Assembly: GCA_963719425.1 (NCBI GenBank) | Contig: OY970382.1 | Span: forward strand, 813,833-877,832 | DNA: 64,000 nt | Source: an uncultured bacterium | Lineage (GTDB): Bacteria > Patescibacteriota > Minisyncoccia > UBA6257 > 2-01-FULL-56-20 | Direction: 5' to 3' | Part shown: piece after piece, positions 1 to 44,658 of the stretch | Layout: every line of letters starts with the position of its first letter | Numbering within the stretch: position 1 is the first letter of the stretch | The notes under the pieces: generated by a model | What the model saw: the letters and a program-made list of their open reading frames with translations, nothing else | Database searches by the model: none | Told to the model about the DNA's origin: nothing | Position numbers and translations under genes: made by a program

Positions 1-422
1 GCGACTTCCTTCTGGAGCATAAAGATGCAGCGTACAGGTCTTGTCGCAAGTTCGCTGATGATTCGGAGAAGATGCCCAGTGAGATAGTACGGGATGTTGC
101 CGACAATTTTGTATGGCTTGCCGCGGCGAATTTCGCTTGCGCGCCCTGACGCGAAAGCCGTGAGGGCATCACCCGTAATGATTTCTATTTCTTTCGCCCA
201 AGATTGCGTGCGGAGTTTTAGCGCAAGCTGCCGATCTTTTTCTATAGCAATAAGTGTGCACCCGTGCGCGTGGCAGATCTCCGCGAGAGGTCGCGTAAGT
301 TCCCCGTGCCCCGCGCCGACCTCAAAAATAATTTCACCGCGTTCCGGCTGGATCGCGTCCAGGATCATTTTCACGACCGATTGGTTTTTTAGGAAATGCT
401 GGCCCAGCGATTTTTTTACCAT
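1..422 (-). CDS. rsmA: 16S rRNA (adenine1518/1519-N6)-dimethyltransferase RsmA/KsgA, N-terminal part (gene continues past the window start)
   Basis: Minus-strand translation from ATG (complement of 420-422) gives MVKKSLGQHFLKN...EVGAGHGELT...IVGNIPYYLTG, the classic KsgA SAM-binding and NIPY motifs. The + strand ORF 94..498 in the track is rejected as antisense. Confidence 0.7.
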   Translation of the reverse strand, partial: MVKKSLGQHFLKNQSVVKMILDAIQPERGEIIFEVGAGHGELTRPLAEICHAHGCTLIAIEKDRQLALKLRTQSWAKEIEIITGDALTAFASGRASEIRRGKPYKIVGNIPYYLTGHLLRIISELATRPVRCIFMLQKEV

Positions 423-424
423 CG

Positions 425-2287
425 TCAAATTTCTATTATTTTTTCTTCACGCCCATCTTCACCGTCCGCGGCAATCGCCGCGTCTGTGCTGTCGGTAAGC
501 GCAAGGCAATCTTCTGGAATCTCCGCGAGGAACCGCGACGGCATTCCGTAAAAACTAAGACGCAAGTTTTCTTTTGCGCGTGTCATCGCGACGTACATCA
601 GCCGGCGTTCTTCCTCGAGCGAAAGTTCGCTGTCCATTGACCGGACGTGCGGAAGCAGTCCTTCGGCTATGCCCGCGACGAACACATTTTCAAACTCAAG
701 CCCCTTCGCGAGGTGGATCGTCATCAGATTTATTTTTTCTCTTTTGTTCTCCTTGTTGTCGCCGCGCTTTGCGCGCGCACCGCCGGTTCCGCCATCCGTA
801 CCGACGTCGGTGGCCTGCAAAAGACTTGTTTTTTCAAGGAAATCCGAGAGATTTTCAAATCCTGAGGCAAAGCGCGTAAGCTCTGCGATGTTCTCCTCCC
901 GTTCGTCGGCGTTCATGAAGCTTTCTTCTAAGTAGTCAAAATAGCCGAAGGCTTCAAGGAAAATGTTGATGATGTCCAGGGGCCTAGGATGCTCCCTAGC
1001 CGCAATTTTTTCTTTGAACACGGCAAACTTTTTCTTGGAAAGATTTTTTAGAAGGCGCTCGCGCGCGAGCGAGTCGCGGTCATTCGCGGCTACGCGGAGC
1101 GCGGCGAGCGCGTCCTTCACCTCACGCCGTTCATAGAACTTCAATCCGCCAAAGATTTGATAGGGCATATCGCGACGGATAAGCGCCTGTTCTATTGCGC
1201 GCGACTGCGCGTTCGTCCGGTACAGGATCGCGACTTCTGCCAGCGCGTCGCAACGTTTTATTTTTCGGATCTCTTCTGCGATCCACTCCGCTTCATCGTT
1301 CTCGTCCCATGCCTCAAAAAGCGCAATCCGTTCCCCTTCCGGCTTCCGCGTCCACAATTGTTTTGGCGCACGCCAGCGGTTGTTCTCCGCGACCGCTTGA
1401 GCAGCGCGGATGATATTTCCCGTGGAGCGGTAATTTTCTTCAAGGAAAAATATTTTCGCGGCGGGCCATTCCTTTTCAAAATCAAGAAATGTTGTTATGT
1501 CTGCGTATCGCCAGCTATAGATGGTTTGCTCGTCGTCCCCCACTACGCTCAAATTGTTGTGTCGGCCGACGAGGAGCTTCACAAGTTCGTATTGCTTCGG
1601 ATTGATGTCTTGGTATTCGTCAACGAGAATCGCGTCAAATTTCATTCGGTATATTTCAAGAATTTCAGGCCGTCGCCTAAAAAGCGCAACCGGCTTTTCA
1701 ATGAGGTCATCAAAGTCAAACGCGTTGTTCGCGCGGAGCGCAGCCTCATACCTTTCAAAAACATTTTTGATGAGCTCCCTTCGCTCAGCTGGCTCCCTTA
1801 AGGATCCAAGCGCGCCATCAAGGTTTTTGATCAGGGAGAGCTTCCCCGCGAAGAACGCCGGCGTGTCCCTTTTGCCAGCTTCACCTTTTGGGAGGCCCTT
1901 CACGATCTTTTTTGCAAGGTCAAAAGAATCATGGTCATCAAAGATCGCGAAGTTCGGCGTCCGGCCAAACTCCCGGCATTCCTTTCGTAGTATCCGCGCT
2001 CCGAGCGAGTGGAAAGTGCCAATGAACGGCTCCCTGCGTCCTCTCGCGGAATCCCTTGTCACCCGGTCCCTCATTTCTTGCGCCGCCTTGTTGGTAAAAG
2101 TTATAGCGCATATCCTCTCTGGCGGAATTCCATTCTCCGCGAGATGGACAATGCGGCTTGTTAGGGTTCTGGTTTTTCCGGTTCCCGCTCCCGCCACTAT
2201 CAATAAAGGAGAAACGGGCGCTTCGGCAGCTGCTTTCTGGGCAGGATTTAGAGAGAAAACCTTGTTTAGTTGATTTTGAGGCGGCAT
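425..2287 (-). CDS. UvrD/PcrA-family ATP-dependent DNA helicase
   Basis: GAGTGKTRTL Walker A plus DEYQD, VGDDEQTIYSWR and TIHLAKGLEF helicase motifs. Start trimmed to the internal Met MPPQNQLNKVFSLNPAQ; the upstream extension is low-complexity. Confidence 0.8.
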   Translation of the reverse strand: MPPQNQLNKVFSLNPAQKAAAEAPVSPLLIVAGAGTGKTRTLTSRIVHLAENGIPPERICAITFTNKAAQEMRDRVTRDSARGRREPFIGTFHSLGARILRKECREFGRTPNFAIFDDHDSFDLAKKIVKGLPKGEAGKRDTPAFFAGKLSLIKNLDGALGSLREPAERRELIKNVFERYEAALRANNAFDFDDLIEKPVALFRRRPEILEIYRMKFDAILVDEYQDINPKQYELVKLLVGRHNNLSVVGDDEQTIYSWRYADITTFLDFEKEWPAAKIFFLEENYRSTGNIIRAAQAVAENNRWRAPKQLWTRKPEGERIALFEAWDENDEAEWIAEEIRKIKRCDALAEVAILYRTNAQSRAIEQALIRRDMPYQIFGGLKFYERREVKDALAALRVAANDRDSLARERLLKNLSKKKFAVFKEKIAAREHPRPLDIINIFLEAFGYFDYLEESFMNADEREENIAELTRFASGFENLSDFLEKTSLLQATDVGTDGGTGGARAKRGDNKENKREKINLMTIHLAKGLEFENVFVAGIAEGLLPHVRSMDSELSLEEERRLMYVAMTRAKENLRLSFYGMPSRFLAEIPEDCLALTDSTDAAIAADGEDGREEKIIEI

Positions 2288-3395
2288 GTGTGCTATGCTT
2301 ATCTCTATTAGTACGATAGTAAAACAATTGTACAGGAAAGATAAGCCATTAACAGTGGCTGTTTTTTTGGTTGTGGGGTGTCTTCTCGCAAGCGCTTGGT
2401 TTTCGGGGAAGGCCGGGCCAGTGGAGGAACGGGGGGTTCTCGGAGGCCCTGCCCTTTCTCCGTCTCTCGTCGCAAATGCCGAGGGTGCGGGGTTCGGGAG
2501 GACGGCTGCGGCGTTTCTCGCGAATGACGGGGCAGCTCTTGCAGATTTAGGCAGCGCTACTTTTCCCGAGGATTCCGGCTCTGTCTCCGCATCCGCAGAA
2601 ACCGCCCCCTCCGAAAACTCTGAGAACGCCGCAATAAAAGATGCAGGAACACCGATCGGCCCCGCGTTTGACCGGTCGGGCATGATCTCGTATGTGGTTC
2701 AAAAAGGGGACACTCTTTCCCAGATTGCCTCCAATTTCGGTATCTCGGTTGACACCGTCGTGAATGCGAACCCCGACGTGAGGGTCGCCGCGCTTGCGGT
2801 CGGCACGAACTTGAAGATATTGCCGACCTCCGGCGTGGTGTATCAAACAAAGAGTGGAGATACGCTTGAGTCAATTTCCGATTCGTTTGGAATCCCTCAA
2901 AATAAGATAGCGCAGTTTAATCAGGGCGTGAATTTCGGTTCGCTTGATGCGGGAACGCCGGTCATCATACCCGGTGGCAAGAATGTTGCCCTTCTCGCGA
3001 GCGCTTCTACGTCGCCGGATTTCAATGAGGAGTTCATCATGCCCACCAACGGCTACAACTGGGGGATACTTCATCACTACAATGCGGTTGACATTGCGAA
3101 TTCGTGCGGAACTCCGGTTGTTGCTGCGGCAGAGGGGCTCGTCATTCCCGACGACACTATCCCGGACGCTTTTGGTGGCTGGAACGAGGGCTACGGCAAT
3201 TTTGTTTTAATAGAGCACCCCTTCGGCGACGGCGTGCGCACGCGCTATGCTCATTTGGAGAAAATATTGGTGCAGATCGGAGATTATGTGGGACAAGGAC
3301 AGGTCATTGGGCTTATGGGTGAGACTGGCGATGCAACCGGCTGTCACGTGCACTTTGAGGTGTACGGAGCACAGAACCCGTTCGCGAAGGCGTAA
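2286..3395 (+). CDS. Secreted LysM-repeat / M23-family peptidoglycan peptidase
   Basis: N-terminal TM/signal segment, two LysM-like segments (YVVQKGDTLSQIASNFGISV; YQTKSGDTLESISDSFGI), and a C-terminal M23 signature (HxxxD...GxTG..TGCHVHFEV). Confidence 0.75.
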   Translation: MCAMLISISTIVKQLYRKDKPLTVAVFLVVGCLLASAWFSGKAGPVEERGVLGGPALSPSLVANAEGAGFGRTAAAFLANDGAALADLGSATFPEDSGSVSASAETAPSENSENAAIKDAGTPIGPAFDRSGMISYVVQKGDTLSQIASNFGISVDTVVNANPDVRVAALAVGTNLKILPTSGVVYQTKSGDTLESISDSFGIPQNKIAQFNQGVNFGSLDAGTPVIIPGGKNVALLASASTSPDFNEEFIMPTNGYNWGILHHYNAVDIANSCGTPVVAAAEGLVIPDDTIPDAFGGWNEGYGNFVLIEHPFGDGVRTRYAHLEKILVQIGDYVGQGQVIGLMGETGDATGCHVHFEVYGAQNPFAKA

Positions 3396-14777: not shown

Positions 14778-14778
14778 C

Positions 14779-30670: not shown

Positions 30671-30704
30671 CGAAGGTGGGACTCGGTAATTATGAAACGT
30701 ATTG

Positions 30705-35838: not shown

Positions 35839-37125
35839 ATGCCCGTAAAACTTTCCAAAAAACAGATTGTCATCATTGGTGGAGGAGTCGTCGTTTTGAT
35901 TGTCGTTGTCGTCCTCCTTTATATCGGGTTGCGCCCAAAGGTGAATACCGGTTCGGGGGTTGCGCTTACCGTGTGGGGCACCGAGGACAGCGGAACCTTC
36001 GGGAGTATTCTTGCGTCGTATCCGTACGGGAAGGTGACGTACGTGCAGGTTGACCCCGCGAACTATCATTCACTGATTCTCTCCGCCCTCGCGGCGGGTA
36101 CCGGCCCCGACGTGTTTGAAGTAAGCAACCGCGAGCTCCCAAAATGGGCATCGGTTCTCATGCCGTTCCCCGCTTCCTCAACACAGTTCGGCGTCCTCCA
36201 GCTTCAAAGCTTGTTCCCGGACACGGTGGCGAGGGATTTTGTTCGGGGCGGGGGAATTTACGGGCTCCCGCTTTCCATTGATACGCTCGCCATGGTGTAC
36301 AACAAAGACCTTTTCAACGCTGCGGGCGTCGCGGTTCCTCCTGCGACATGGGACGATTTTGATACGGACGTTGTGAGGCTCCGCCGCATGAATGCGGCGG
36401 GCGAGCTCATGCAGGCGGCGGCGGCGATTGGCGGCTCGGGCGCGAGCATCCCAAATGCCGTTGACATCCTTTCACTGCTTATGCTCCAAAGCGGGGCGCA
36501 GATGACGGACGACAGGGGAACCGCCGCGACGTTTTTCACTGGCGGGGACAACGGCGCCACGGGCGTTGCCGCGTTCAATTTCTACCTGCAATTCGCGAAC
36601 GCGGCATCGCCGTATTACACTTGGAACGACGGAATGGGAAACGCGGTTGATAGTTTCGTGGCGGGAAAGACTGCGATTATATTTGCATACCAGTCGGATC
36701 TCGCGGCGATAGAAGCGAAAGCGCCTTACCTCAGTATAGGCATCGCGCCGATGCCGCAGGCGAATGGGGCGAGCATGCCCGTGAATTATCCGGAATACAA
36801 CGGCTTAGCGGCGGCGAAAGCGGGCAAATCAGCCGATGCCTGGAATCTCATCTTTTATCTCGCGACAAATGCGGCCAATGCGGCGGCGTACCAAGGCGCA
36901 ACCGGGAAACCGCCCGCGCTCCGCGCCCTGATTCAAGCAGAAGCGAACAGCGCCTCCCTCTCCGTTTTTGCAACACAGATCTTGACCGCGAAATCATGGT
37001 ACGAGGCCGACGATACCCAGATAGACGCCATTTTTGACACTGCCATAAAAAACGTGCTCGACGGTTCTGCAGATTCATCTCAAGCCCTGAACCAGGCACA
37101 AACGGCCGTAAGTCAATTAATGTAA
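35839..37125 (+). CDS. N-terminally anchored extracellular solute-binding protein (SBP family 1, MalE-like), orphan
   Basis: LTVWGTED, GPDVFEV, GLPLSIDTLAMVYNKDLF and GKTAIIFAYQSD motifs. No permease or ATPase partner lies nearby. Confidence 0.7.
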   Translation: MPVKLSKKQIVIIGGGVVVLIVVVVLLYIGLRPKVNTGSGVALTVWGTEDSGTFGSILASYPYGKVTYVQVDPANYHSLILSALAAGTGPDVFEVSNRELPKWASVLMPFPASSTQFGVLQLQSLFPDTVARDFVRGGGIYGLPLSIDTLAMVYNKDLFNAAGVAVPPATWDDFDTDVVRLRRMNAAGELMQAAAAIGGSGASIPNAVDILSLLMLQSGAQMTDDRGTAATFFTGGDNGATGVAAFNFYLQFANAASPYYTWNDGMGNAVDSFVAGKTAIIFAYQSDLAAIEAKAPYLSIGIAPMPQANGASMPVNYPEYNGLAAAKAGKSADAWNLIFYLATNAANAAAYQGATGKPPALRALIQAEANSASLSVFATQILTAKSWYEADDTQIDAIFDTAIKNVLDGSADSSQALNQAQTAVSQLM

Positions 37126-37127
37126 TA

Positions 37128-37586
37128 ATGAATAAGATGAAAACAAAACTTGTCGGCGCTCTTGCCTTGTTCGTGATTGTGACGCCGTATCTCGCGTTCG
37201 CTGCGATCAATAGCAATGTGTGGAGCCCAACCATTTTGAAGGGGCCGCTCATTTCGTGCACGGGAGCAGGAACGGCCGGCGGCACTGATACTAAGAATTG
37301 TCAGAATCTTTGCGACCTCGTGAGCACCGCGGCGAACGTCATCTATTTCGGGATCGGCGTCGTGATTTGGATCATCGCGCCGATTATGATCGCGTGGAGC
37401 GGGATCAGATTACTCATCGCGCGCGGCAGGCCGGAAAAGATAAGCGAGGCCCACAAAATGATCACAAGCGTGGTGTGGGGACTCGTGATCGCGCTTTGCG
37501 CGTACATCATCGTGTACACTTTCATTCACGTCCTTAACATAACCGGCATCGGCGGCTTTGGCACGTCCGCGTGCAGCGTCCAATAA
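37128..37586 (+). CDS. VirB2/TrbC-like small secreted two-helix membrane protein (paralog 1 of 7)
   Basis: Signal peptide, conserved Cys, then two hydrophobic helices separated by an ...RGRPEK... loop and a C-terminal Cys. The topology matches T4SS pilin-family proteins. Confidence 0.5.
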   Translation: MNKMKTKLVGALALFVIVTPYLAFAAINSNVWSPTILKGPLISCTGAGTAGGTDTKNCQNLCDLVSTAANVIYFGIGVVIWIIAPIMIAWSGIRLLIARGRPEKISEAHKMITSVVWGLVIALCAYIIVYTFIHVLNITGIGGFGTSACSVQ

Positions 37587-38483
37587 ATGAACTCGGTACA
37601 GATCACCATTAATCCCAATCTTCCCGGCGTGGCGTCTTCCACCTCCTTTCCCGGCCTTGTCAGTGGTTTCTACAGCTTCGCCCTTCTCATGGCCGGCATC
37701 CTTGCCTTCGGCGCGATCGTCTACGGTGGCATCAAGTACGCGGTGAGCCGCGGCAATCCCTCGGCCGAGAGTGAGGGAAAAAGCTGGATTACGAATGCGC
37801 TCATTGGACTCCTGCTTCTTGCCGGCGCGTACGTCGTTCTTTATACCGTGAATCCGCAGATCGTTTCACTTCAAATTCCCGGTCTGCCGGGGCTGTCTGC
37901 GGTTTCGTCCACGGGAGGCGGGATAGGAGGTGGGGGCGGTGGTGGGGGCGGTGGCGGGACATGTTCTACAATCAGCGATCCGTCAAATTCTTGCAGCATT
38001 AGCAGCGTGCAATCAGCGTGCAGCGCGTGGGTTCCGAATTTAGCATCGCAGGTTTGCAATAAGGAAAGCGGCGGCGGCACAAACCCGGGCATACAAAGCG
38101 GTACCGACAAATGCGAAGACGGCACATCGTTCTCCGTAGGATTGTGGCAGATTAACGTTATCTCCACGCCCGGCGTGCCCTCGGCGTGCAGCTTCACCGA
38201 AGATACGAGTCCTTCCACCAAAGGCGTTGGCTGCAATGGAAGTTATTCCAGTAAACAGGCGCAAGGGTATTGCCTACAATGTAAAACGGGCGGGGGAGGG
38301 CTATACTGTTCAGAGTGGAGCTGTTCTTTTAATACCAGTTCGGGCGATTATAACAGCTGTGTGTCTGGCGTTGCGTCACAGAATGACCAATTAGCTTGCA
38401 CGCTTTATAGTCAGTCGCATGGCGGGAGTTTTTGCCCGTGGAAATATACCGCAAATCTGTGCAGCATTTCCGTGCCTTGCTAA
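37587..38483 (+). CDS. VirB2/TrbC-like module fused to a poly-Gly linker and a C-terminal Cys-rich domain (paralog 2)
   Basis: N-terminal two-helix module (GNPSAESEGKS loop), a GGGIGGGGGGGGGGG linker, then a 170-aa domain with 17 Cys and a KES...SVGLWQINV motif. Confidence 0.5.
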   Translation: MNSVQITINPNLPGVASSTSFPGLVSGFYSFALLMAGILAFGAIVYGGIKYAVSRGNPSAESEGKSWITNALIGLLLLAGAYVVLYTVNPQIVSLQIPGLPGLSAVSSTGGGIGGGGGGGGGGGTCSTISDPSNSCSISSVQSACSAWVPNLASQVCNKESGGGTNPGIQSGTDKCEDGTSFSVGLWQINVISTPGVPSACSFTEDTSPSTKGVGCNGSYSSKQAQGYCLQCKTGGGGLYCSEWSCSFNTSSGDYNSCVSGVASQNDQLACTLYSQSHGGSFCPWKYTANLCSISVPC

Positions 38484-38496
38484 TGGAAGTTCATTT

Positions 38497-39024
38497 ATGA
38501 AAAAACTCATTCTCATCATTGCTCTCGTTATCGTCGTTGGCGCGGTGTTGTTGGTTTTTGTAGGCAGGAATCAGTCCCAAGCGCCCGGCGGCGGAGCTGG
38601 CAATCTTCCGACGCCCACAACGACGCCCGGGCCCGTTCCTGCGGGACCGACAATCTCTCTGCAAACAAATCAGGGCGTGGTCACGATGAAGAATTTTTAT
38701 AACGAAGCTGCGGCCGTAAATCAAGCCACCGTATTTTTGAGGATTGATTTTAGGGACACCTACCATTACGAGATGGGCTACAACAGGCAGAACAGCACAT
38801 TCTACATTATGTTGGATACCTATTCTTTGGCGGATGCGATTGAGTACAGGAGTGTGGCCGAAGACGATTTTCTGAACCTAATGGGCATAAGCAAAAGCGA
38901 CGCCTGCAAGTTGCGCGTTGATCTTAGAGTCAACCCGACGTACGTGACCGCCGGCAATTACCCAATTGATTTGGCCCAAATGAATTACGGTTTGAGCTTC
39001 TGCCCGGGCTCGGTAGGTTTTTGA
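38497..39024 (+). CDS. Hypothetical N-terminally anchored secreted protein
   Basis: ORF with TM/signal MKKLILIIALVIVVGAVLLVFVG; no motifs recognised. Confidence 0.4.
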   Translation: MKKLILIIALVIVVGAVLLVFVGRNQSQAPGGGAGNLPTPTTTPGPVPAGPTISLQTNQGVVTMKNFYNEAAAVNQATVFLRIDFRDTYHYEMGYNRQNSTFYIMLDTYSLADAIEYRSVAEDDFLNLMGISKSDACKLRVDLRVNPTYVTAGNYPIDLAQMNYGLSFCPGSVGF

Positions 39025-39039
39025 TGCCGATGTAGTACA

Positions 39040-39885
39040 ATGAAAACAATGGGATATATTTTGAAACGGGCTGGATACGCGATGCTCTTGCCACTCGCCG
39101 TGGTTGTTGTGATGATTGCTTTGCCAAACCACCTCTTTGCCAGTGGAGGATTCCAGTGCGTGCAGGCTGGCACAGTAAACTACAATGTAAGCCCGACCTC
39201 GGTGAGCGACACGGGAACCAGCATGACAGCAACCTTCAACTTCGCCTCTACTCAAGTTGGTCAGGATCCAACTTGCGACGGTGCTCAGAGCGTGAGCATA
39301 ACTTTTTTCTTCAAGGGCAGTAGCGGCAACTTATTGGGACAGCAGGTTTGGTCCGGTCCTACCATACCGTCCGACCCGGTAACCGGCATGAATCAGAATG
39401 TAAGTTATGGCAATACGTATACCTTCACACTGGGGACGTTTAACCAAACGCAGGCTTCGTTGGGCAGCGGCGCGACCTTTAGCAGTTATGTCCAAGTCAC
39501 CGATGCCAATTCTGGCAGCCAAATCACACAGAGCTCGCCAGTCGCAATAACGTACGGCAGCGGCGGCACCCCTCCCATTTCGCCTTCCAGTCCCGTTACC
39601 AGCTCCAGCTCCATCGCGCTCACGAATCCCTTGGGAAGCAGCTGCAATGACCTGACCTGCCCCTTGGCCGCCGTCATGAACTTTATCTTCACTATCTCCA
39701 TTCCCATCTGTGGTATTATTATCCTAATCGGAGGTTTTCAGATGATGACGGCTGGGGGAAATCCGGAAAAATTCAGCACCGGAAAGAAAACCATCCTCTA
39801 CGCGGTCATCGGGTTTGTGGTGGTTCTTCTTGCGGGTGGTGTTGCCAAACTCATCCAGAGCATATTAGGCGGCGGGTCAAGTTAA
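39040..39885 (+). CDS. Beta-rich Ser/Thr-rich ectodomain fused to a C-terminal VirB2/TrbC-like module (paralog 3)
   Basis: The C-terminal 90 aa (LTCPLAAVMNFIFTISIPICGIIILIGGFQMMTAGGNPEKFSTGKKTILYAVIGFVVVLLAGG) align with the other paralogs. Confidence 0.5.
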   Translation: MKTMGYILKRAGYAMLLPLAVVVVMIALPNHLFASGGFQCVQAGTVNYNVSPTSVSDTGTSMTATFNFASTQVGQDPTCDGAQSVSITFFFKGSSGNLLGQQVWSGPTIPSDPVTGMNQNVSYGNTYTFTLGTFNQTQASLGSGATFSSYVQVTDANSGSQITQSSPVAITYGSGGTPPISPSSPVTSSSSIALTNPLGSSCNDLTCPLAAVMNFIFTISIPICGIIILIGGFQMMTAGGNPEKFSTGKKTILYAVIGFVVVLLAGGVAKLIQSILGGGSS

Positions 39886-39901
39886 AATTTATTTATTAGG
39901 C

Positions 39902-40270
39902 ATGGAAAAGATAAAAAAAATGGCGGTTTGCAGCGCGGTCGGTTCATTTACGATGTCGCTTATCACGGCCGCAAGCGCGGCGACGGCCCCTACGAGCACC
40001 ATCACGAGCGTGTCGGATATTACCACCCTCCTCTGCGGGATATTAAACTGGGTCTTTTGGGGACTCATCGTGGTGGGAATAATAATGTTCCTCATGGGCG
40101 GGTACCGCTATGCGACGTCGTCGGGAGATCCCGAAGGTGTCAGCAAGGCGAATAAGACGCTCCTTTATGCCGCGATTGCGATCGTAGTCGCGCTAGTAGC
40201 AAGAGGAGTCCCGGTTTTCATAGGAAGCATCTTCGGCGTGCAGCCCTCAAGTTTGAGTGTGTGTCCGTAA
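39902..40270 (+). CDS. VirB2/TrbC-like small secreted two-helix protein (paralog 4)
   Basis: Core DITTLLCGILNWVFWGLIVVGIIMFLMGGYRYATSSGDPEGVSKANKTLLYAAIAIVVALVARGVP. Confidence 0.6.
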   Translation: MEKIKKMAVCSAVGSFTMSLITAASAATAPTSTITSVSDITTLLCGILNWVFWGLIVVGIIMFLMGGYRYATSSGDPEGVSKANKTLLYAAIAIVVALVARGVPVFIGSIFGVQPSSLSVCP

Positions 40271-40283
40271 TGTTATAATAAAA

Positions 40284-40712
40284 ATGATGGTGAGGAACAT
40301 GCTTTGCAAAATTAATTCGCGGACGGGTCGGATATTACTTTCCGCATCACTCACCGTTTTTGCATTCTTTGTGGCACGGGTCGCCGGGGCGACGACAACG
40401 ATCATCAATCTGCCACCACCAAATGGCATAACCGCTCCTTCAACAACGCTCTCGACGACCGACATCACCACCCTTTTCTGCGGCATCATTAACTGGATTT
40501 TCTGGGGGCTCATTGTGCTCGCCGTTGTTATGACTCTCGTTGGGGGTTATGGGTATGCGGTATCGTCGGGAGATCCAGAGAAGGTTGGCAAAGCGAACAA
40601 AACTCTTCTCTATGCCGCGATCGCAGCTGCGGTTGCAATATGCGCGTGGGGAGTTCCCTCGCTCATTGGCAGTGTCTTGGGCGCCGGCACCCTTAGCCAG
40701 TTTTGTAAGTAA
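40284..40712 (+). CDS. VirB2/TrbC-like small secreted two-helix protein (paralog 5)
   Basis: Core about 80% identical to paralog 4 (DITTLFCGIINWIFWGLIVLAVVMTLVGGYGYAVSSGDPEKVGKANKTLLYAAIA). Start chosen at MMVRNM. Confidence 0.6.
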   Translation: MMVRNMLCKINSRTGRILLSASLTVFAFFVARVAGATTTIINLPPPNGITAPSTTLSTTDITTLFCGIINWIFWGLIVLAVVMTLVGGYGYAVSSGDPEKVGKANKTLLYAAIAAAVAICAWGVPSLIGSVLGAGTLSQFCK

Positions 40713-40717
40713 GAACA

Positions 40718-41131
40718 ATGAGGAAAATCAAGACAGTACCTCTCTTTGCGGCAGTCGGCGCGACAATTTTGGTGGCGATGGTTTTTGCGCAAACCGCCGC
40801 TGGTCTCGCTGGTCCCACGCCGCCTCCCGGCGTGACAACGCTGCCCACGAGTCCGGTTCAGAATGTTACGAACATTTCCGATATTGTGTGCGGCATCCTT
40901 TTGTGGGTATTTTGGCTTCTCATCATGTTTGCCATTATCATGTTCCTCATGGGCGGCTATCGTTATGCAACCTCTGCGGGCGAGCCGGAAAAAGTGCAAG
41001 GTGCGAACAGGACGCTTCTTTATGCCGCAATCGCGGTCGTCGTAGCCCTCTGTGCGTGGGGAGTTCCCACCCTTATAGACAGCTTCCTGGGAGGATTTAA
41101 CGTGGGGATGCTCACGAGCATCTGTGGATAA
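40718..41131 (+). CDS. VirB2/TrbC-like small secreted two-helix protein (paralog 6)
   Basis: Core DIVCGILLWVFWLLIMFAIIMFLMGGYRYATSAGEPEKVQGANRTLLYAAIAVVVAL. Confidence 0.6.
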   Translation: MRKIKTVPLFAAVGATILVAMVFAQTAAGLAGPTPPPGVTTLPTSPVQNVTNISDIVCGILLWVFWLLIMFAIIMFLMGGYRYATSAGEPEKVQGANRTLLYAAIAVVVALCAWGVPTLIDSFLGGFNVGMLTSICG

Positions 41132-41207
41132 GAGAGCCAGTTTGTTTTTCCAAAAGAAAGGGGTATACTAAGACGGTAACTGGAAAGGTCGAAAATCCCA
41201 ATTATCC

Positions 41208-41594
41208 ATGAAAACAGTAAAAGAATTTGCGAAGGGATTGGCGGCACCGGTCCTCGCGCTCGGACTTCCGCTTGTGGCATTGGCGCAGTTTACGGGGCCG
41301 GGTGTGACGGCACCTGCGGCGCCGATATCAAGTGTGGGACAAATTGCGGGCGCGAACGGCCTTCTCTGCACGATCATCAACTGGTTGTTTTACTTGATGA
41401 TCATCTTGGCCATCATCTTCGTTTTCGTCGCAGCGTTCAAGTACTTAACTGCCGGAGGTGATCCCGAAAAGGTGAGTAAGGCGGGAAGCACGCTGCTCTA
41501 CGCGGTAATTGCCGTCGTGATCGCGCTCGTCGCGAAAGGAATACCACTGATCATCTCAAGCTTCCTTGGCTCGAGCACCTTCACCGCGTGCTAG
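41208..41594 (+). CDS. VirB2/TrbC-like small secreted two-helix protein (paralog 7, most divergent)
   Basis: Core LLCTIINWLFYLMIILAIIFVFVAAFKYLTAGGDPEKVSKAGSTLLYAVIAVVIALVAKG. Confidence 0.55.
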   Translation: MKTVKEFAKGLAAPVLALGLPLVALAQFTGPGVTAPAAPISSVGQIAGANGLLCTIINWLFYLMIILAIIFVFVAAFKYLTAGGDPEKVSKAGSTLLYAVIAVVIALVAKGIPLIISSFLGSSTFTAC

Positions 41595-41631
41595 CTGGTT
41601 GCCGTCCTGACTTATTGCGGCCGCGTTTTTC

Positions 41632-41656
41632 AAAAGGCCCCTTGTGGGGCCTTTTG
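41632..41656 (+). terminator. Intrinsic terminator closing the paralog array (ggcccc-ttgt-ggggcc + TTTTGG)
   Basis: Read directly. A second hairpin (agccgttgg-cggtg-ccaacggct) at 41701-41723 with a minus-strand T-tract terminates the convergent gene. Confidence 0.55.
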
Positions 41657-41757
41657 GATTCCATAATTTGTTTTCATAAGAGATTTATTAAAAAGCGAAG
41701 CCGTTGGCGGTGCCAACGGCTTGTTGTGGGAAAGGATTCCTCCCACATTAACCCTTA

Positions 41758-41813
41758 CTAGGGAAGCGGAATTCGGCACATCCGCCTAGGGAAGCGGAAT
41801 TCGGCAAATCCGC
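41758..41813. repeat. 28-bp tandem direct duplication (ctagggaagcggaattcggcaCatccgc / ...cggcaAatccgc) that includes the stop codon of the upstream gene
   Basis: Read directly; the two copies differ by one mismatch. Confidence 0.55.
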
Positions 41814-42738
41814 GCCCTTTCAGGTAGAAAGAGCTGCAGTCCGTAAAGTCATTTCCAAAAGGCTCGTATCCGACACGAACTGGTTGTGGCGCAGAACGGC
41901 CACTGCACCACACCGAAGCCCCGTCGCCGGGATTTGCACTGTGAACCACCTCAACGTTTCCCGACGTGTCCACGGTGAAGGGGCCGTGATAGCAGTCATC
42001 CCATAGATTGATTCTCGAAAAACCATACGTATTGGGAATCAGGTTTTGGGGTTCTGCCTGCGAACAAATCCGTGCAGGTTCTTTCGAATCCACAGCCGCC
42101 CTTTCGGCTCTACTGGGTGGGGCAGCAAAGAATGACATCGTTACCAAAACAATCAGGGCCACAATCCACCAGGTCCTGTGCATCCTTCCCGTAAGGATGC
42201 CGTGAACCTTGAATGCCCACCAGGTCATGATCAACATGATGAGCATCAGAACCTGGGAAGGTCTATTTGAGACAGGAACGAAGGTGCAGTAGATGCTAAT
42301 ACAAAGGCCAACAATAAAACTGGCCACCACTGCTCCGAAACATTCCTTCAGCCAGCGTCCCACCTTGGGGAGTGCAAAAGCCGCTAGCATAAACCAAAAG
42401 ACCCTCACGCTTCGGTGTTGAGAGACCTGGATGCTTCCTAGGGCGAGCGCCAGGATTCCGGTAATCATGAATACGATAGCAACGAGCGGCACCATTGCCT
42501 CTTGTACGCTTGGAGCAAACGCTGCAATCGTGATTACGGCCAGAATCCACACGAGGATTCCGGCGAGCCAAAAGAGAACCCACTGTCGGAGGGAAGCGAT
42601 TATGATTTGGGCGCGCTGCCTCAAATCATTGACGATTGGCTGGGCTCGTTGAACAACATTCCTGCCGGCTTCATAGGCCTCTTCTCCGAGGAGTTCCAAT
42701 GTTTCCCCGAATTCCCGCAAAAACCGTCCAATGTTCAT
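41758..42738 (-). CDS. Hypothetical polytopic membrane protein with a Cys-containing C-terminal ectodomain
   Basis: ORF with 6+ TM helices. Its 3' end carries a 28-bp tandem duplication. Confidence 0.45.
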   Translation of the reverse strand: MNIGRFLREFGETLELLGEEAYEAGRNVVQRAQPIVNDLRQRAQIIIASLRQWVLFWLAGILVWILAVITIAAFAPSVQEAMVPLVAIVFMITGILALALGSIQVSQHRSVRVFWFMLAAFALPKVGRWLKECFGAVVASFIVGLCISIYCTFVPVSNRPSQVLMLIMLIMTWWAFKVHGILTGRMHRTWWIVALIVLVTMSFFAAPPSRAERAAVDSKEPARICSQAEPQNLIPNTYGFSRINLWDDCYHGPFTVDTSGNVEVVHSANPGDGASVWCSGRSAPQPVRVGYEPFGNDFTDCSSFYLKGRGFAEFRFPRRMCRIPLP

Positions 42739-43403
42739 TGCGACACTCCTTCCTGCCGAGCAGCTCGGCGATTTCTCAGAAAAGTGTTGAGGGTATGGAG
42801 TCCGTCGGCGGCTTTCCCTGCGGCTCCGTCCACGGCGCTGCCCGTTTCGGCAAGCAGACCGCTGATTACGCCGAAGATCTTGTGAAGTTCTTCTCTGCTT
42901 GTGAGATGCTTAGTAAGAGAAGAAGGTTCTTTGTAGAGCGCGCGTAAAGTTGCAAGCTCAAGCGTCAAACGAGCCTGCACCCTGGGAATATCCGCATCCG
43001 TCGCGCCATGAATCTTTTGCCATGCTTCCTTGGCGAAGGAGTTGAGGATTGTTGGCGGAATTCCAGGAATCACAGCTTTGACATCTCGTTGTACTTTTTG
43101 GACCGCTTGGTCGCCCAGTTCTTCCGAAAGTGACTCCAGGACGTCTGTGCTTTTTTCCCCGAGGGCTCCCAAGAATCCGGTGCCCCCAAACTCACCCTCC
43201 AAGAAGCCAGAAAGCCCATTCAAGATGGTCCTAAACCCGGCTGAGCGGAAAAAGCTTTCGTCCGGAATCCTCGATGCAACGTCCCGTGCGAACGCTTGAA
43301 TTGCGGGATTCCCAAGCATGCTCAGAATTCCGTTCCAAATCCCACTCCTCATCTTCTCTTTCCTTTCCTGTTTGTTTCCCCTGTCATTCCCTTTCTCTGC
43401 CAT
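42735..43403 (-). CDS. Hypothetical protein (Gly/Phe-rich, soluble)
   Basis: ORF overlapping the downstream gene start by 4 nt; no motifs recognised. Confidence 0.4.
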   Translation of the reverse strand: MAEKGNDRGNKQERKEKMRSGIWNGILSMLGNPAIQAFARDVASRIPDESFFRSAGFRTILNGLSGFLEGEFGGTGFLGALGEKSTDVLESLSEELGDQAVQKVQRDVKAVIPGIPPTILNSFAKEAWQKIHGATDADIPRVQARLTLELATLRALYKEPSSLTKHLTSREELHKIFGVISGLLAETGSAVDGAAGKAADGLHTLNTFLRNRRAARQEGVSQ

Positions 43404-43538: not shown

Positions 43539-43621
43539 CGTCGAGGTGGCGGAACTGGCATACGCGCAGCGCTTAGGACGCTGTCCCGCAAGGGTTGTGG
43601 GTTCAAATCCCACCCTCGACA
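43539..43621 (+). tRNA. tRNA-Leu (anticodon UAG), type II with a long variable arm
   Basis: GTCGAGG/CCTCGAC acceptor, TGGCGGAA D-region, anticodon stem CAGCG/CGCTG with loop CTTAGGA, variable arm TCCCGCAAGGGTTG, T-arm GTGGG-TTCAAAT-CCCAC. Confidence 0.85.
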
Positions 43622-43692
43622 CTCACAGCATAAAGGAGAGCTTCTTCCCGCTACTGCGAAGACGAAGTCGCTGGAAGAAATCTCCTGCGGGC

Positions 43693-44658
43693 TTATCCGC
43701 GCCTTCTCCCGTGGAACGCCTGGTGCACTTCGCGGAGTGCTTTATTCGTGAGATGGGTATAAACCTGCGTGGTAGAAATATTTGCGTGGCCGAGAAGTTC
43801 CTGGACGGAGCGGAGGTCGGCGCCGTTCATGAGGAGGTCGGTCGCGAAACTGTGGCGGAGCTGGTGCGCGTGGACGTGCTTCGCAATGCCGGCTTCGCGC
43901 GCCCGCGTGGCGACCAGTCGCTGCACGGCGCGCGGCGTCACGCGCCCAATCACTTTTCCGGATTTGTTCAGGCTTACAAAAAGTGCCTCCTCCGCGTCGC
44001 TGCGCTTCGCAAGATATCTTTGGATGGCCTCGCGTGCCGAGTTAGAAATAAAAACAACGCGCAGTTTGTCACCTTTCCCGCGCACGGTGACCTCACCGCG
44101 TTTCAAATCCAAGTAGCGGCTTAGGGAGCACAACTCGGCCAGCCGAAGGCCCGTAGAGAAGAATGTTTCCAGGACCGCTTTGTCGCGGAGCGCGCGTAGG
44201 TCGTTGCTCTTGGGCGCCGCGAGCAAACGTTCCAGGTCTCCGTACTCAAGCACCTCAATCTGCCGCGAAGGCGTTTTGGGAAGCTCTATTTTTTCCGCCG
44301 CGAGCGTTTTCACATCGCGCCTCGCCAAATATTTCAAAAAGTTCCGGAGGGCGATCACGTAATAGCTTTGCGTGACCTTTTTGATCGCCGCGCCGTCATT
44401 CCCGCGCTCGCGGCGGGCGAGCGCAAGGCGGAACTCGCGTACCGCGTCGTCCGTGATGTCCGCCGGCCTCCGCACTTTGGAAAATTTCAAAAACTCATTC
44501 AGATAGTGCTCGTAATTCTCGCGCGTCTTCGGCGAGCGGTTCTTTTCTATTTCCAGATAGTTCAGATAATCCTTGAGTAGTTTTTCAATGTCGGTCACAG
44601 GATTATTATATTCCTCTCGTGTCGCAAAATAAAAGAGAAGGGTTTGCACCGGCGCCAC
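43693..44658 (-). CDS. XerC/XerD-type tyrosine site-specific recombinase (integrase)
   Basis: N-terminal SAM-like core-binding domain. C-terminal catalytic motifs R...HQLRHSFAT...LGHANISTTQVYTH with the nucleophilic Tyr. Track ORFs 43546..44124 and 43769..44116 are antisense to it and rejected. Confidence 0.8.
   Translation of the reverse strand: MAPVQTLLFYFATREEYNNPVTDIEKLLKDYLNYLEIEKNRSPKTRENYEHYLNEFLKFSKVRRPADITDDAVREFRLALARRERGNDGAAIKKVTQSYYVIALRNFLKYLARRDVKTLAAEKIELPKTPSRQIEVLEYGDLERLLAAPKSNDLRALRDKAVLETFFSTGLRLAELCSLSRYLDLKRGEVTVRGKGDKLRVVFISNSAREAIQRYLAKRSDAEEALFVSLNKSGKVIGRVTPRAVQRLVATRAREAGIAKHVHAHQLRHSFATDLLMNGADLRSVQELLGHANISTTQVYTHLTNKALREVHQAFHGRRRG

What the first reader, a model, noticed from the sequence alone, without database searches (positions are those of the whole stretch)
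37128..41656. Tandem array of seven VirB2/TrbC-like two-helix secreted proteins with no nearby secretion ATPase
Seven consecutive same-strand genes at 37128-41594 encode paralogs that share the same module: a signal peptide, a conserved Cys, a hydrophobic helix, a short charged loop (GDPEKV/GNPEKF/RGRPEK), a second hydrophobic helix, and a C-terminal Cys. The hydrophobic cores of paralogs 4 to 6 are about 70-80% identical. The N-terminal Thr/Pro/Ser-rich ectodomain segments differ completely between copies. Two copies are fused to larger extracellular domains. This topology is that of T4SS pilins of the VirB2/TrbC family, but no VirB4, VirD4 or VirB6 gene appears anywhere in the 64 kb. The array sits directly downstream of an orphan SBP and is closed by a strong intrinsic terminator at 41632-41656. 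Together these point to a diversifying surface-appendage or pilin-like locus, possibly a host-interaction system, with no canonical secretion machinery adjacent. The VirB2 assignment rests on topology and on motif resemblance, not on a search.
Basis: partly seen in the sequence, partly recalled or inferred. Interest (0 to 1): 0.8.

Follow-up and report, generated by a model that had tools for sequence, protein, structure and literature searches.

The report
Patescibacterial VirB2-like pilin gene array
This is a tandem set of seven small VirB2-like "pilin" genes of a kind already described in ultrasmall Patescibacteria (CPR bacteria), and the secretion machine that seemed to be missing is encoded just beyond the left edge of the window, so the locus is a typical member of a known class.

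Summary
The array is real. Seven genes between 37128 and 41594 (+) each pass the curated cut-off of Pfam PF18895 (T4SS_pilin). An eighth, non-pilin gene (38497-39024) interrupts them. The genome is a Patescibacterium of the Paceibacteria/Minisyncoccia group.

Such VirB2-like pilin arrays are already published for Patescibacteria: 2-11 genes, tandem or split by a non-pilin gene, often far from virB4 (PMC12102498). One array is essential in Southlakia epibionticum (PMC10633639).

No T4SS machinery lies inside the 64 kb. However, the window's left end (KsgA fragment, UvrD) is colinear with a sister genome, where KsgA is followed directly by a VirB6-like candidate, PrgI, TraC-like, VirB4, one pilin and dnaA. 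A VirB4 97% identical to the sister genome's sits on a contig of the same length (887,956 bp) as the one carrying the window's exact pilins. The hairpin of gene 2 is 76% identical to the sister cluster's pilin.

Small additions:
- The operon starts with an orphan sugar-binding protein and is conserved next to gyrA in about 48 related loci.
- Gene 2 fuses a pilin hairpin to an SLT-type lysozyme-like domain, making it VirB1-like.
- A co-varying cysteine pair may staple the hairpin.

Verdict: a new member of a known kind, of low to moderate interest.

The parts
35839..37125 (+). First gene of the operon: a membrane-anchored family-1 sugar substrate-binding protein (428 aa) with no ABC partner in the window. 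Its stop lies 2 bp before gene 1.
   Evidence: PDB phmmer gives 3uor E 3e-10 and 8art E 9e-10. NCBIfam gives weak GanS and MalE hits. It lies beside the pilin genes in about 48 related loci, including L042 where the block is inverted. Precomputed SBP_bac_1/SBP_bac_8 hits are recorded for the orthologues in L082 and L083.
37128..37586 (+). Pilin-like gene 1 (152 aa): N-terminal hydrophobic signal segment, Cys-containing ectodomain, hairpin with loop RGRPEK, C-terminal Cys149.
   Evidence: PF18895 30.1 bits, E 5e-7. Hydropathy and Cys map. Orthologue is present as the first pilin in most related loci.
37587..38483 (+). Gene 2 (298 aa): pilin-type hairpin (aa 21-88), disordered Gly-rich linker (aa 95-122), and a Cys-rich SLT-type lysozyme-like domain (aa 123-298; E160-S161 and G185-L-W-Q-I-N190). 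A VirB1-like wall hydrolase on a pilin anchor.
   Evidence: PF18895 30.5 bits; SLT_3 (PF18896) only E 0.014 for this copy. Of 38 family members, 19 hit PF18896 (best E 7.6e-10) and 1 hits SLT; one other homologue, P0061, carries CHAP instead (faint hit). The E-S and GL(F/W)QIN motifs are conserved in 30-33 of 38. AF2 pLDDT 78.8. The hairpin is 76% identical to the pilin inside the VirB4 cluster of the sister genome.
38497..39024 (+). Non-pilin gene 3 (175 aa): one N-terminal TM segment, Pro/Thr-rich linker, and a globular domain of unknown function.
   Evidence: No Pfam hit; only a chance-level NCBIfam hit (fusolisin, E 0.057, 11.5 bits against a cut-off of 999). It keeps its position in most related loci but is very divergent: 91% identical in L002, 31% in L001.
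39040..39885 (+). Pilin-like gene 4 (281 aa): signal segment, strain-specific N-terminal ectodomain of about 170 aa, hairpin with loop GGNPEKF, no C-terminal Cys.
   Evidence: PF18895 42.8 bits, E 5.4e-11. Orthologues in L001 and L002 are 140 and 127 aa and lack the N-domain. The N-domain has no homologue in the 80 related loci.
39902..40270 (+). Pilin-like gene 5 (122 aa) with Cys45 and Cys121.
   Evidence: PF18895 38.4 bits; alignments.
40287..40712 (+). Pilin-like gene 6 (141 aa from ATG 40287; the ORF list gives GTG 40257) with Cys65 and Cys140.
   Evidence: PF18895 40.1 bits. The orthologue's N-terminus matches the ATG start.
40718..41131 (+). Pilin-like gene 7 (137 aa) with Cys58 and Cys136.
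   Evidence: PF18895 41.2 bits. NCBIfam NF045849 36.6 bits, below the cut-off of 40. AF2 gives a signal helix at 7-28 and a hairpin at H50-87/H90-124.
41208..41594 (+). Pilin-like gene 8 (128 aa) with Cys54 and Cys128 as the last residue. It is the most widely conserved last gene of the array.
   Evidence: PF18895 35.9 bits. It is the best match for the last pilin in most related loci.
41629..41658 (+). 13-bp G+C-rich hairpin with an A-tract before and a U-tract after. It is the likely intrinsic terminator closing the operon.
   Evidence: Sequence read directly. The 86-nt stretch 41595-41680 holding the hairpin has an MFE of -31 kcal/mol, z = -3.7. The consensus terminator scan did not list it.
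1..2683 (-). Context anchor: UvrD (425-2683) and the first 141 codons of KsgA (1-424). In the sister genome these lead directly into the T4SS core cluster and dnaA.
   Evidence: Pfam UvrD. Window 1-2085 aligns to L086 2157-1 at 84% DNA identity, and the KsgA N-terminus aligns. L086 gene order.

Best explanation
The locus is a satellite operon of the chromosomal type IV secretion system (T4SS) of a Patescibacterium (Paceibacteria/Minisyncoccia). The operon runs SBP, pilin 1, pilin-SLT fusion, non-pilin gene, then pilins 4-8, with gaps of 0-16 bp plus one of 76 bp, and ends in a hairpin terminator.

Shown:
- Seven products are members of the VirB2-like PF18895 family.
- They are predicted helix-loop-helix hairpins.
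- The block is conserved next to gyrA across a broad clade.
- A VirB4-centred T4SS cluster lies next to dnaA on the same contig as this array in two related genomes. It is predicted just off the window's left edge.
- The hairpin of gene 2 is a close paralogue of the pilin inside that cluster.

Inferred:
1. The pre-pilins are inserted by Sec, with both ends outside and the conserved G-x-P-E-K loop in the cytoplasm.
2. In the Cys-pair subtype, a disulfide ties the start of helix 1 to the C-terminus. This would be a covalent closure analogous to the head-to-tail cyclisation of TrbC/VirB2.
3. The VirB4 machine extracts the subunits and assembles them into a surface filament or stalk that contacts the host cell. 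The fast-evolving Thr/Pro/Ser-rich N-termini, and the extra domain of gene 4, would sit on the outside.
4. Gene 2 uses its pilin-like anchor to place an SLT-type glycosidase at the assembly site and open the cell wall, the role of VirB1.
5. The SBP-like protein binds a glycan, from the host surface or the cell's own envelope, in the same process.
For: - Family membership: 7 of 7 genes exceed the PF18895 cut-off. A profile of the group finds 34,632 cluster representatives at E<=1e-3.
- Lineage: GyrA is 97% and 95% identical to Patescibacteria MAGs.
- Synteny: gyrA, SBP and pilins 1-8 are kept in about 48 loci, with 1-7 profile hits per locus (mostly 3-7 where the locus is not cut), down to about 59% GyrA identity.
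- Machinery: L086 has UvrD, KsgA, three large proteins, PrgI, TraC-like, VirB4, two genes, a PF18895 pilin, then YidC, RnpA, DnaA. The window's left end is colinear with it. VirB4 P0320 is on an 887,956-bp contig, as are the exact window proteins P0001 and P0121, and it is 97% identical to the L086 VirB4. The VirB4 cluster and the gyrA array lie on one contig in L083/L085 and in L002/L086. VirB4 homologues are also listed on contigs of the same lengths as those of L001, L003, L004, L005, L056 and L082.
- Link between array and cluster: the gene 2 hairpin is 76% identical over 100 aa to the cluster pilin.
- Gene 2 enzyme domain: PF18896 in 19 of 38 family members, with E-S and GLxQIN motifs.
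- Cys pair: 63 of 63 short pilins with Cys at profile column 10 also have a tail Cys, and 67 have neither (Fisher p = 7e-20, not corrected for phylogeny).
- Evolution: dN/dS is 0.11-0.35 for the pilins against about 0.05 for gyrA. The N-terminal part diverges more than the hairpin.
- Literature: pilin arrays of 2-11 genes in 383 Patescibacteria assemblies, and pilins near virB4 in only 1135 of 1948 assemblies (PMC12102498). The pilin array and T4SS are essential in S. epibionticum (PMC10633639, PMC12857230).
Against: - No pilus built from these proteins has been seen in any Patescibacterium, and the name 'pilin' is computational.
- The canonical TrbC/VirB2 model is not matched (12.1 bits against 27.9). 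A profile of the group finds no solved VirB2 or TraA pilin by sequence.
- Fold searches with a bare helical hairpin are not discriminating. ATP synthase c subunits score similarly.
- The public library holds single polypeptides with 3-8 tandem hairpins (P0136, P0143). These are hard to reconcile with subunits that are extracted one by one.
- The position of VirB4 relative to the window is inferred from synteny and matching contig length. It was not read directly: the look-up of P0320 found no record.
- The disulfide and the role of the SBP rest on co-variation and co-location only.
Confidence: 0.65

Rival explanations
1. The hairpin proteins are T4SS-associated but do not form an extracellular pilus. 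They stay in the membrane as protomers of an oligomeric ring, stalk or conduit, or serve simply as membrane anchors, as in gene 2.
For: - Poly-hairpin proteins with 3-8 tandem modules and no internal signal peptides exist in the family.
- Gene 2 uses the hairpin as the anchor of an enzyme.
- The closest generic fold matches include c-ring subunits.
- No pilus has been observed in Patescibacteria. Reviews speak only of a 'potential to elaborate conjugative pili' (PMC12857230).
Against: - The variable, Thr/Pro/Ser-rich, fast-evolving N-termini and the large ectodomain of gene 4 suggest surface exposure and interaction.
- The best specific structural match is a conjugation pilin.
- There is weak sequence similarity to the Mycoplasma ICE pilin-like family NF045849 and to TrbC.
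Confidence: 0.22
2. The SBP-led operon is a self-contained system independent of the T4SS, for example a new SBP-fed membrane channel or an adhesion module. Its closeness to the T4SS cluster would then be coincidental.
For: - The SBP is the first gene and lies 2 bp from gene 1.
- The SBP stays with the pilins through rearrangements such as L042.
- No ABC partner lies within 64 kb.
- The array sits next to gyrA and not inside the VirB4 cluster.
Against: - The gene 2 hairpin is 76% identical to the pilin inside the VirB4 cluster.
- The family occurs within VirB4 clusters.
- In Southlakia the array lies inside the T4SS cluster and is essential (PMC10633639).
- Genomes with the array also carry VirB4 wherever this could be checked.
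Confidence: 0.06
3. The small Sec-signal proteins are secreted effector or toxin subunits exported through the T4SS. This is the pertussis-toxin analogy first proposed for the TM7x array. Alternatively they are bacteriocin-like hydrophobic peptides.
For: - Tandem paralogous small proteins with signal peptides near a T4SS were first read this way (PMC7427843).
- Tandem arrays of small hydrophobic secreted peptides are typical of bacteriocin loci (general knowledge).
Against: - Two long hydrophobic helices with a positive-inside loop predict stable membrane insertion, not a soluble effector.
- The PF18895 hits argue against it.
- No immunity gene, double-glycine leader or export ABC gene was seen in the window.
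- Later literature reinterprets the TM7x array as VirB2-like pilins (PMC12102498).
Confidence: 0.04
4. They are ordinary unrelated lipoproteins or type IV pilus (T4P) pilins. This is the refutation case the reader itself named.
For: All but gene 2 have N-terminal hydrophobic segments.
Against: - By eye, no lipobox (L-[AS]-[GA]-C) stands at the end of any signal segment. There is also no class III G/FTLIE prepilin motif, nor the single N-terminal helix typical of T4P pilins.
- All seven share one family profile.
Confidence: 0.01

Closest known systems
VirB2-like pilin arrays of Patescibacteria (PF18895): Quinonero-Coronel et al. 2025 (PMC12102498); the six-pilin essential array of Ca. Southlakia epibionticum ML1 (PMC10633639, PMC12857230); the 'Sec-secreted array' of TM7x (PMC7427843)
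   Same: - Same Pfam family.
- Same organisation: 2-11 divergent tandem copies, sometimes split by a non-pilin gene.
- Same low paralogue identity (published mean 25%, maximum 54%; here 18-64%).
- Same phylum, and the same association with a monoderm-type VirB4/PrgI/VirB6 T4SS lacking relaxase.
- Arrays remote from virB4 are already reported: pilins are near virB4 in only 1135 of 1948 assemblies.
   Different: - Here the array is not in the VirB4 cluster. It forms its own operon beside gyrA, about 45 kb away.
- The operon is led by an orphan sugar SBP, contains a pilin-SLT fusion, and is fixed in that position across a broad Paceibacteria clade.
- These three details are not mentioned in the papers I read. 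The words solute, substrate-binding, gyrA and gyrase are absent from PMC12102498.
Canonical VirB2/TrbC pilins (Pfam PF04956; Agrobacterium T-pilin, RP4 TrbC, F TraA)
   Same: - Signal peptide followed by two hydrophobic helices joined by a short charged loop, with both ends outside.
- Small size.
- Genetic link to a VirB4 ATPase.
   Different: - No significant PF04956 match (12 bits) and no profile hit to solved pilins.
- The host is a monoderm.
- Head-to-tail peptide cyclisation (known for TrbC and VirB2, from my own knowledge) is possibly replaced by a Cys-Cys staple (inference).
- There are many paralogues instead of one major pilin.
VirB2 paralogue arrays of Bartonella and Anaplasma T4SSs
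   Same: Tandem, divergent pilin paralogues are thought to vary the exposed surface (cited in PMC12102498).
   Different: - Those hosts are diderm pathogens of eukaryotes, and their arrays lie in or near the virB operon.
- No sign of recent gene conversion is seen here. The longest DNA repeat between copies is 89 nt at 64-74% identity.
Archaeal Ced/Ted conjugation-type pilins (Aeropyrum pernix pilus, PDB 8dfu)
   Different: The match is not statistically significant by Foldseek (E 3.7), and a helical hairpin is a low-information fold. Homology has not been shown.
VirB1-type wall hydrolases of monoderm T4SSs (SLT and CHAP domains; Pfam PF18896 SLT_3)
   Same: The gene 2 C-domain family hits SLT_3 (19 of 38), with SLT once in the family and CHAP in one further homologue. 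It keeps the E-S and G-L-x-Q-I motifs of family-1 lytic transglycosylases.
   Different: - The window's own copy is below the PF18896 cut-off (16.3 bits against 27).
- Its anchor is a pilin-type hairpin and not a single TM helix.
- The domain is rich in Cys and highly divergent between close relatives: 45% identity over the whole protein to L001, where only the hairpin third stays at 83%.
Mbov_0395 family pilin-like conjugal transfer protein of Mycoplasma ICEs (NCBIfam NF045849)
   Same: Weak matches over the whole 80-residue model (up to 36.6 bits, E 2.7e-9). It is also a pilin-like hairpin in a wall-less or monoderm conjugation system.
   Different: All scores are below the curated cut-off of 40 bits, so the window proteins are not members.

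Membership tests
Pfam PF18895 T4SS_pilin (Patescibacterial VirB2-like pilins) | Score at or above the curated gathering cut-off (26.6 bits) | tested here: met
   Seven of seven genes score 30.1-42.8 bits. The interrupting gene 38497-39024 has no hit.
Pfam PF18895 T4SS_pilin (Patescibacterial VirB2-like pilins) | Two hydrophobic helices forming a hairpin around a short polar loop | tested here: met
   Hydropathy. AF2 gives H50-87/H90-124 for gene 7 (core pLDDT 70-86) and H21-53/H58-88 for gene 2 (pLDDT 76-90).
Pfam PF18895 T4SS_pilin (Patescibacterial VirB2-like pilins) | Encoded in a Patescibacteria genome that also has a VirB4-type T4SS | tested here: met
   Lineage is shown. VirB4 P0320 is on a contig of the same length (887,956 bp) as the exact window proteins. 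The left end of the window is colinear with the T4SS-bearing locus L086. VirB4 is not inside the window, and the physical link is inferred, not read.
Pfam PF18895 T4SS_pilin (Patescibacterial VirB2-like pilins) | Polymerises into a T4SS-dependent filament | not testable with these tools
   This needs microscopy, proteomics or genetics. It has not been shown for any member of the family (PMC12857230).
Published 'VirB2 array' class (PMC12102498) | Two to eleven pilin genes in tandem or separated by one non-pilin gene, with low paralogue identity | tested here: met
   Seven pilin genes plus one non-pilin gene. Pairwise identity is 18-64% over the core.
Pfam PF04956 TrbC/VirB2 | Score at or above the gathering cut-off (27.9 bits) | tested here: not met
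   The best is 12.1 bits (E 0.24) for gene 1. Only 2 of 38 gene 2 relatives reach E 3e-4. There is no hit to solved VirB2 or TraA sequences.
Pfam PF04956 TrbC/VirB2 | Signal-peptide cleavage and, in TrbC and T-pilin, head-to-tail cyclisation | not testable with these tools
   Only an analogous Cys pair is seen. Processing needs mass spectrometry.
VirB1-like lytic transglycosylase (PF18896 SLT_3 / PF01464 SLT), for gene 2 | Profile match above the cut-off (27 bits) | tested here: inconclusive
   The window copy scores 16.3 bits, E 0.014. Nineteen of 38 relatives match PF18896 at E<=0.01, best 7.6e-10.
VirB1-like lytic transglycosylase (PF18896 SLT_3 / PF01464 SLT), for gene 2 | Catalytic Glu in an E-S motif, and a G-L-x-Q motif | tested here: met
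   E160-S161 and G185-L-W-Q-I-N190. These are conserved in 30-33 of 38 relatives. The identification of these motifs as SLT motifs rests on my own knowledge.
Family-1 ABC substrate-binding protein, for gene 35839-37125 | Sequence similarity to solved SBPs | tested here: met
   3uor E 3.2e-10, 8art E 8.8e-10, and 424 chains at E<=1. Orthologues carry precomputed SBP_bac_1/SBP_bac_8 hits. This copy has no Pfam hit above threshold.
Family-1 ABC substrate-binding protein, for gene 35839-37125 | Adjacent ABC permease and ATPase genes | tested here: not met
   None among the 50 ORFs scanned in the window. None lies next to the orthologues in L082 and L083.
NCBIfam NF045849 Mbov_0395 pilin-like conjugal transfer protein | Score at or above 40 bits | tested here: not met
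   The best is 36.6 bits (gene 7); the others score 12.9-28.4.

The most novel reading that the evidence does not exclude
The PF18895 hairpins may not be extracellular pilins at all. They could be protomers of a membrane-embedded, ring- or stalk-like conduit of the Patescibacterial T4SS. In some lineages this conduit would be made as a single poly-hairpin polypeptide. The conserved leading SBP would dock on it, so the apparatus would work as an SBP-fed importer of host-derived glycans or other nutrients. In this reading the Cys-pair staple is a convergent substitute for the cyclisation of TrbC/VirB2.
Probability: 0.1. Interest if true: 0.8.

Novelty: new member of a known kind. Interest (0 to 1): 0.25.

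Why it matters
Patescibacteria make up a large share of bacterial diversity, and most are thought to live attached to other microbes. Their T4SS and its pilin array are essential in the one species tested, yet their function is unknown.

This locus adds no new kind of system. It does give a clean, widely conserved example of three things:
- The pilin array is split off from the machine into its own operon.
- The array carries its own wall-cutting enzyme, fused to a pilin anchor.
- The array is led by a sugar-binding protein.

These details, together with the co-varying cysteine pair, are concrete and cheap hypotheses for groups that can now grow and manipulate such bacteria. The result also shows that the 'missing ATPase' was an artefact of where the window was cut.

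Tried and rejected
- **Profile of the Cys-pair pilins against PDB sequences.** No VirB2, TraA or TrwL hit appeared; only designed proteins and unrelated membrane proteins at E>=0.013.
- **Consensus terminator scan.** It did not list the hairpin at 41629-41658. I confirmed the hairpin by reading the sequence and by folding.
- **Look-ups by exact sequence.** Neither the window's ClpB nor the VirB4 P0320 was on record. I could therefore not read the DNA beyond the window. The location of VirB4 rests on synteny and on matching contig length.
- **Recent gene conversion among paralogues.** Rejected. The longest DNA repeat is 89 nt at 64-74% identity.
- **Positive selection over whole genes.** Rejected. 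dN/dS is 0.11-0.35, elevated relative to gyrA (0.05) but below 1.
- **Lipoproteins, type IV pilus pilins and bacteriocins.** Considered and rejected on sequence features and family hits.
- **The convergent genes 41758-43403 (-) as part of the system** (a multi-TM protein as a VirB6 candidate). Rejected. They have no family hit above threshold (best BPD_transp_2, 20.9 bits against a cut-off of 26.8), and they are absent from the two closest genomes.
- **FtsK at 53040-55163 as a coupling protein.** Rejected. It has the FtsK alpha and gamma domains of the chromosome-segregation enzyme.

Full report
**1. What is in the sequence**

Between 35839 and 41658 the + strand carries nine tightly packed ORFs. 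They are, in order:
- an SBP-like gene (35839-37125);
- gene 1 (37128-37586);
- gene 2 (37587-38483);
- gene 3 (38497-39024);
- gene 4 (39040-39885);
- gene 5 (39902-40270);
- gene 6 (40287-40712);
- gene 7 (40718-41131);
- gene 8 (41208-41594).

The gaps between them are 0-16 bp, apart from 76 bp before gene 8.

Genes 1, 2 and 4-8 each contain two hydrophobic helices around a short charged loop of the form G/R-x-P-E/S-K. All seven exceed the curated cut-off of Pfam PF18895, 'Type IV secretion system pilin' (30.1-42.8 bits against 26.6). Gene 3 has one N-terminal TM segment, no hairpin and no family hit, so the array is seven pilin-like genes interrupted by one other gene.

A profile built from the seven modules finds no further copy in the window.

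Gene 2 lacks the signal segment and the N-side Cys. Gene 4 lacks the C-terminal Cys.

Identity among genes 5-7 is 67-77% over helix-loop-helix and 58-64% over hairpin plus tail. Other pairs are 18-45%.

A 13-bp G+C-rich hairpin at 41629-41658 closes the unit.

**2. Whose genome this is**

GyrA (33333-35783) is 97% identical to that of MAG OY970175.1, an 898,885-bp chromosome. It is 95% identical to that of a 'Minisyncoccia bacterium' MAG. Identity then falls through Paceibacterota, Parcubacteria, Liptonbacteria, Wolfebacteria, Harrisonbacteria and Colwellbacteria MAGs.

The rest of the window holds housekeeping genes: UvrD, ComM-like, NusA, H+-PPase, ClpP, TyrRS, FtsH, AdoHcy hydrolase, DHFR, ThyA, SHMT, FolD, GyrA, XerC/D-like, PNPase, RecA, FtsK, ClpB and others. 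This is a Patescibacterium (CPR) of the Paceibacteria group with a chromosome of about 0.9 Mb.

**3. The kind is already known**

A 2025 survey used exactly PF18895 and PF04956 on 3,035 Patescibacteria genomes. [quoted passage not shown] Pilin genes lay near virB4 in only 1135 of 1948 assemblies (PMC12102498).

The array inside the T4SS cluster of Southlakia epibionticum is essential for epibiotic growth (PMC10633639; reviewed in PMC12857230). [quoted passage not shown]

The family is very large. A profile of the Cys-pair subtype finds 34,632 cluster representatives at E<=1e-3 among 1.84 billion proteins.

**4. The 'missing' machine**

Several lines of evidence place the machine just outside the window.
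- A relative of the gene 2 hairpin (P0102) led to locus L084. There a PF18895 gene sits in a cluster of PrgI, TraC-like and VirB4 next to YidC, RnpA, DnaA and DnaN.
- Searching with that VirB4 returned P0320 on a contig of 887,956 bp. That is the same length as the contig holding the exact gene 2 (P0001) and gene 7 (P0121) products of the window.
- The same search returned VirB4s on contigs of the same lengths as those of L001, L002, L003, L004, L005, L056, L082 and L083, all of which carry the gyrA-linked array.
- P0320 is 97% identical to the VirB4 of the L002 genome.
- In that genome (L086) the order is UvrD, KsgA, 727-aa, 875-aa (7 TM-like stretches, a VirB6-type candidate), 394-aa, PrgI, TraC-like, VirB4, 290-aa, 229-aa, a PF18895 pilin of 111 aa, 426-aa, then R3H, YidC, RnpA, DnaA and DnaN.
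- Window 1-2085 aligns to the UvrD-KsgA end of L086 at 84% DNA identity, in reverse orientation. Window 1-424 (-) encodes the first 141 residues of KsgA.

By synteny the T4SS cluster therefore begins about 0.5 kb beyond window position 1. VirB4 would lie about 8-10 kb beyond it, roughly 45 kb from the array and on the opposite strand. dnaA would lie about 15 kb beyond the edge. This is an inference from colinearity and contig length, because the DNA itself could not be fetched.

The gene 2 hairpin is 76% identical over 100 residues to the pilin inside the L086 cluster. This ties the satellite array to the machine.

**5. Conservation and evolution of the operon**

In about 48 related loci the order gyrA, SBP, gene 1, gene 2, non-pilin gene, gene 4, a variable number of pilins, gene 8 is kept. 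This holds down to about 59% GyrA identity, with 1-7 profile hits per locus (mostly 3-7 where the locus is not cut short). The SBP stays with the pilins even where the block is inverted (L042, L034).

Against the two closest genomes, dN/dS is:
- 0.05 for gyrA;
- 0.04-0.08 for xer;
- 0.14-0.15 for the SBP;
- 0.11-0.35 for the pilins.

The signal and ectodomain part is 47-79% identical, against 83-94% for the hairpin. This means faster evolution concentrated in the exposed part, with whole genes still under purifying selection.

Copy number and add-on domains vary between relatives:
- The 170-aa N-domain of gene 4 is unique to this strain among the 80 related loci fetched with GyrA.
- Gene 1 orthologues of 263-424 aa occur elsewhere.
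- The gene 2 C-domain and gene 3 are replaced by very divergent versions in L001: whole gene 2 45% and gene 3 31% identity (with the gene 2 hairpin third still at 83%), against 83% and 91% in L002.

No recent gene conversion is visible.

**6. Gene 2 is a pilin-anchored, VirB1-like enzyme**

AF2 (pLDDT 78.8) gives a hairpin at 21-88, a disordered Gly linker at 95-122 and a folded domain at 123-298.

All 38 aligned relatives hit PF18895, 19 hit PF18896 SLT_3 (best E 7.6e-10) and one hits SLT. One further homologue from the search (P0061) carries CHAP instead (faint hit).

E160-S161 and G185-L-W-Q-I-N190 match the E-S and G-L-x-Q-I motifs of family-1 lytic transglycosylases (the motif identification is my own knowledge). 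They are conserved in 30-33 of 38 relatives. The window's own copy is below the PF18896 cut-off (16.3 bits), so membership is inferred from the family.

[quoted passage not shown] This fusion may be one reason why.

**7. A co-varying cysteine pair**

I examined 167 short-tailed pilin ORFs from the related loci. All 63 with Cys at the start of helix 1 also have a Cys in the C-terminal tail, usually the last or next-to-last residue. A further 37 have only the tail Cys; these are mostly gene-1 types, whose N-side Cys lies a few residues earlier. The remaining 67 have neither. Fisher p is 7e-20, not corrected for phylogeny.

Both positions are extracytoplasmic in the predicted topology. I infer a disulfide that closes the hairpin, functionally like the head-to-tail cyclisation known for TrbC and VirB2. 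I could not measure the distance in the model, and I found nothing about this in the papers searched.

**8. Mechanism and rivals**

Best explanation, confidence 0.65: this is a satellite operon supplying variable VirB2-like subunits, a wall-opening enzyme and a glycan-binding protein to the dnaA-proximal T4SS.

The main rival, confidence 0.22: the hairpins stay in the membrane as part of a conduit or as anchors. It is supported by single polypeptides with 3-8 tandem hairpins in the public library and by the absence of any observed pilus.

Readings as a T4SS-independent system, as effectors or bacteriocins, or as lipoproteins or T4P pilins are unlikely, for the reasons given under each rival.

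Direct membership of TrbC/VirB2 (PF04956) was tested and not met. Similarity to solved pilins is limited to a non-significant best fold match to the A. pernix conjugation pilin.

**9. Verdict**

The VirB2-like reading is right at the level of PF18895. The 'no machinery' puzzle comes from where the window was cut. The class is already published.

The conserved gyrA-side, SBP-led operon, the pilin-SLT fusion and the Cys pair are modest new details. The locus is a new member of a known kind, with interest 0.25.

Noticed in passing
window 30704-30980 (-): A tRNA-Phe(GAA) gene is interrupted in its anticodon loop by a 204-nt group I intron. Rfam RF00028 scores 61.1 bits at 30735-30958.
   Followed up: partly
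window 14706-14778 (+): A tRNA-Ile with anticodon UAU, which is uncommon in bacteria; most use a modified CAU (my own knowledge).
   Followed up: no
window 41758-43403 (-), with tRNA-Leu(UAG) at 43540-43622 and the Xer-like recombinase at 43693-44658 (-): Two convergent genes of unknown function lie between the array's terminator and a tRNA-Leu/tyrosine-recombinase pair. One is a 326-aa multi-TM protein with a Cys-rich tail; the other is 222 aa. Both are absent from the two closest genomes, and the 326-aa protein is present at about 35% identity in L003 and L025. This may be a small variable insertion.
   Followed up: partly
window 37584-37589: The stop of gene 1 (TAA) and the ATG of gene 2 are adjacent and in the same frame, as in L002 but not in L001. 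Gene 2 here lacks the signal peptide that the family consensus (...AFAQ) shows. I did not test whether read-through or coupling matters.
   Followed up: no
public library proteins P0136 (552 aa), P0143 (820 aa), P0140 (386 aa): Single polypeptides contain 4-8 tandem PF18895-like hairpins with one N-terminal signal segment and no internal ones. If these gene calls are real, they sit awkwardly with the idea of individually extracted pilus subunits.
   Followed up: partly
window 2286-3395 (+): A LysM + Peptidase_M23 wall hydrolase lies next to UvrD, between the predicted T4SS cluster and the rest of the window. The same neighbour is present in L083. The 2025 survey notes M23 and LysM domains on VirB1-like proteins, associated with VirB4 in Paceibacteria.
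   Followed up: no
L001 14221-15707 compared with window 37587-39024: The C-terminal domain of gene 2 and the whole of gene 3 are swapped for very divergent versions in the genome with 97% GyrA identity: whole gene 2 45% identical (hairpin third still 83%) and gene 3 31%. They are nearly unchanged in the 95% genome (83% and 91%). This looks like a cassette-like replacement inside the operon.
   Followed up: partly
window 44736-46499 (+): A 587-aa Lys/Glu-rich protein has no family hit and carries an internal repeat (DLNKTVQ-H-GVE-FGAE..., twice). It is conserved at 62% identity in L001.
   Followed up: no
window 41698-41722: A second perfect hairpin (AAGCCGTTGGC-ACC-GCCAACGGCTT) followed by a T-run on the - strand probably terminates the convergent gene 41758-42738. 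The two convergent units therefore each have their own terminator.
   Followed up: no
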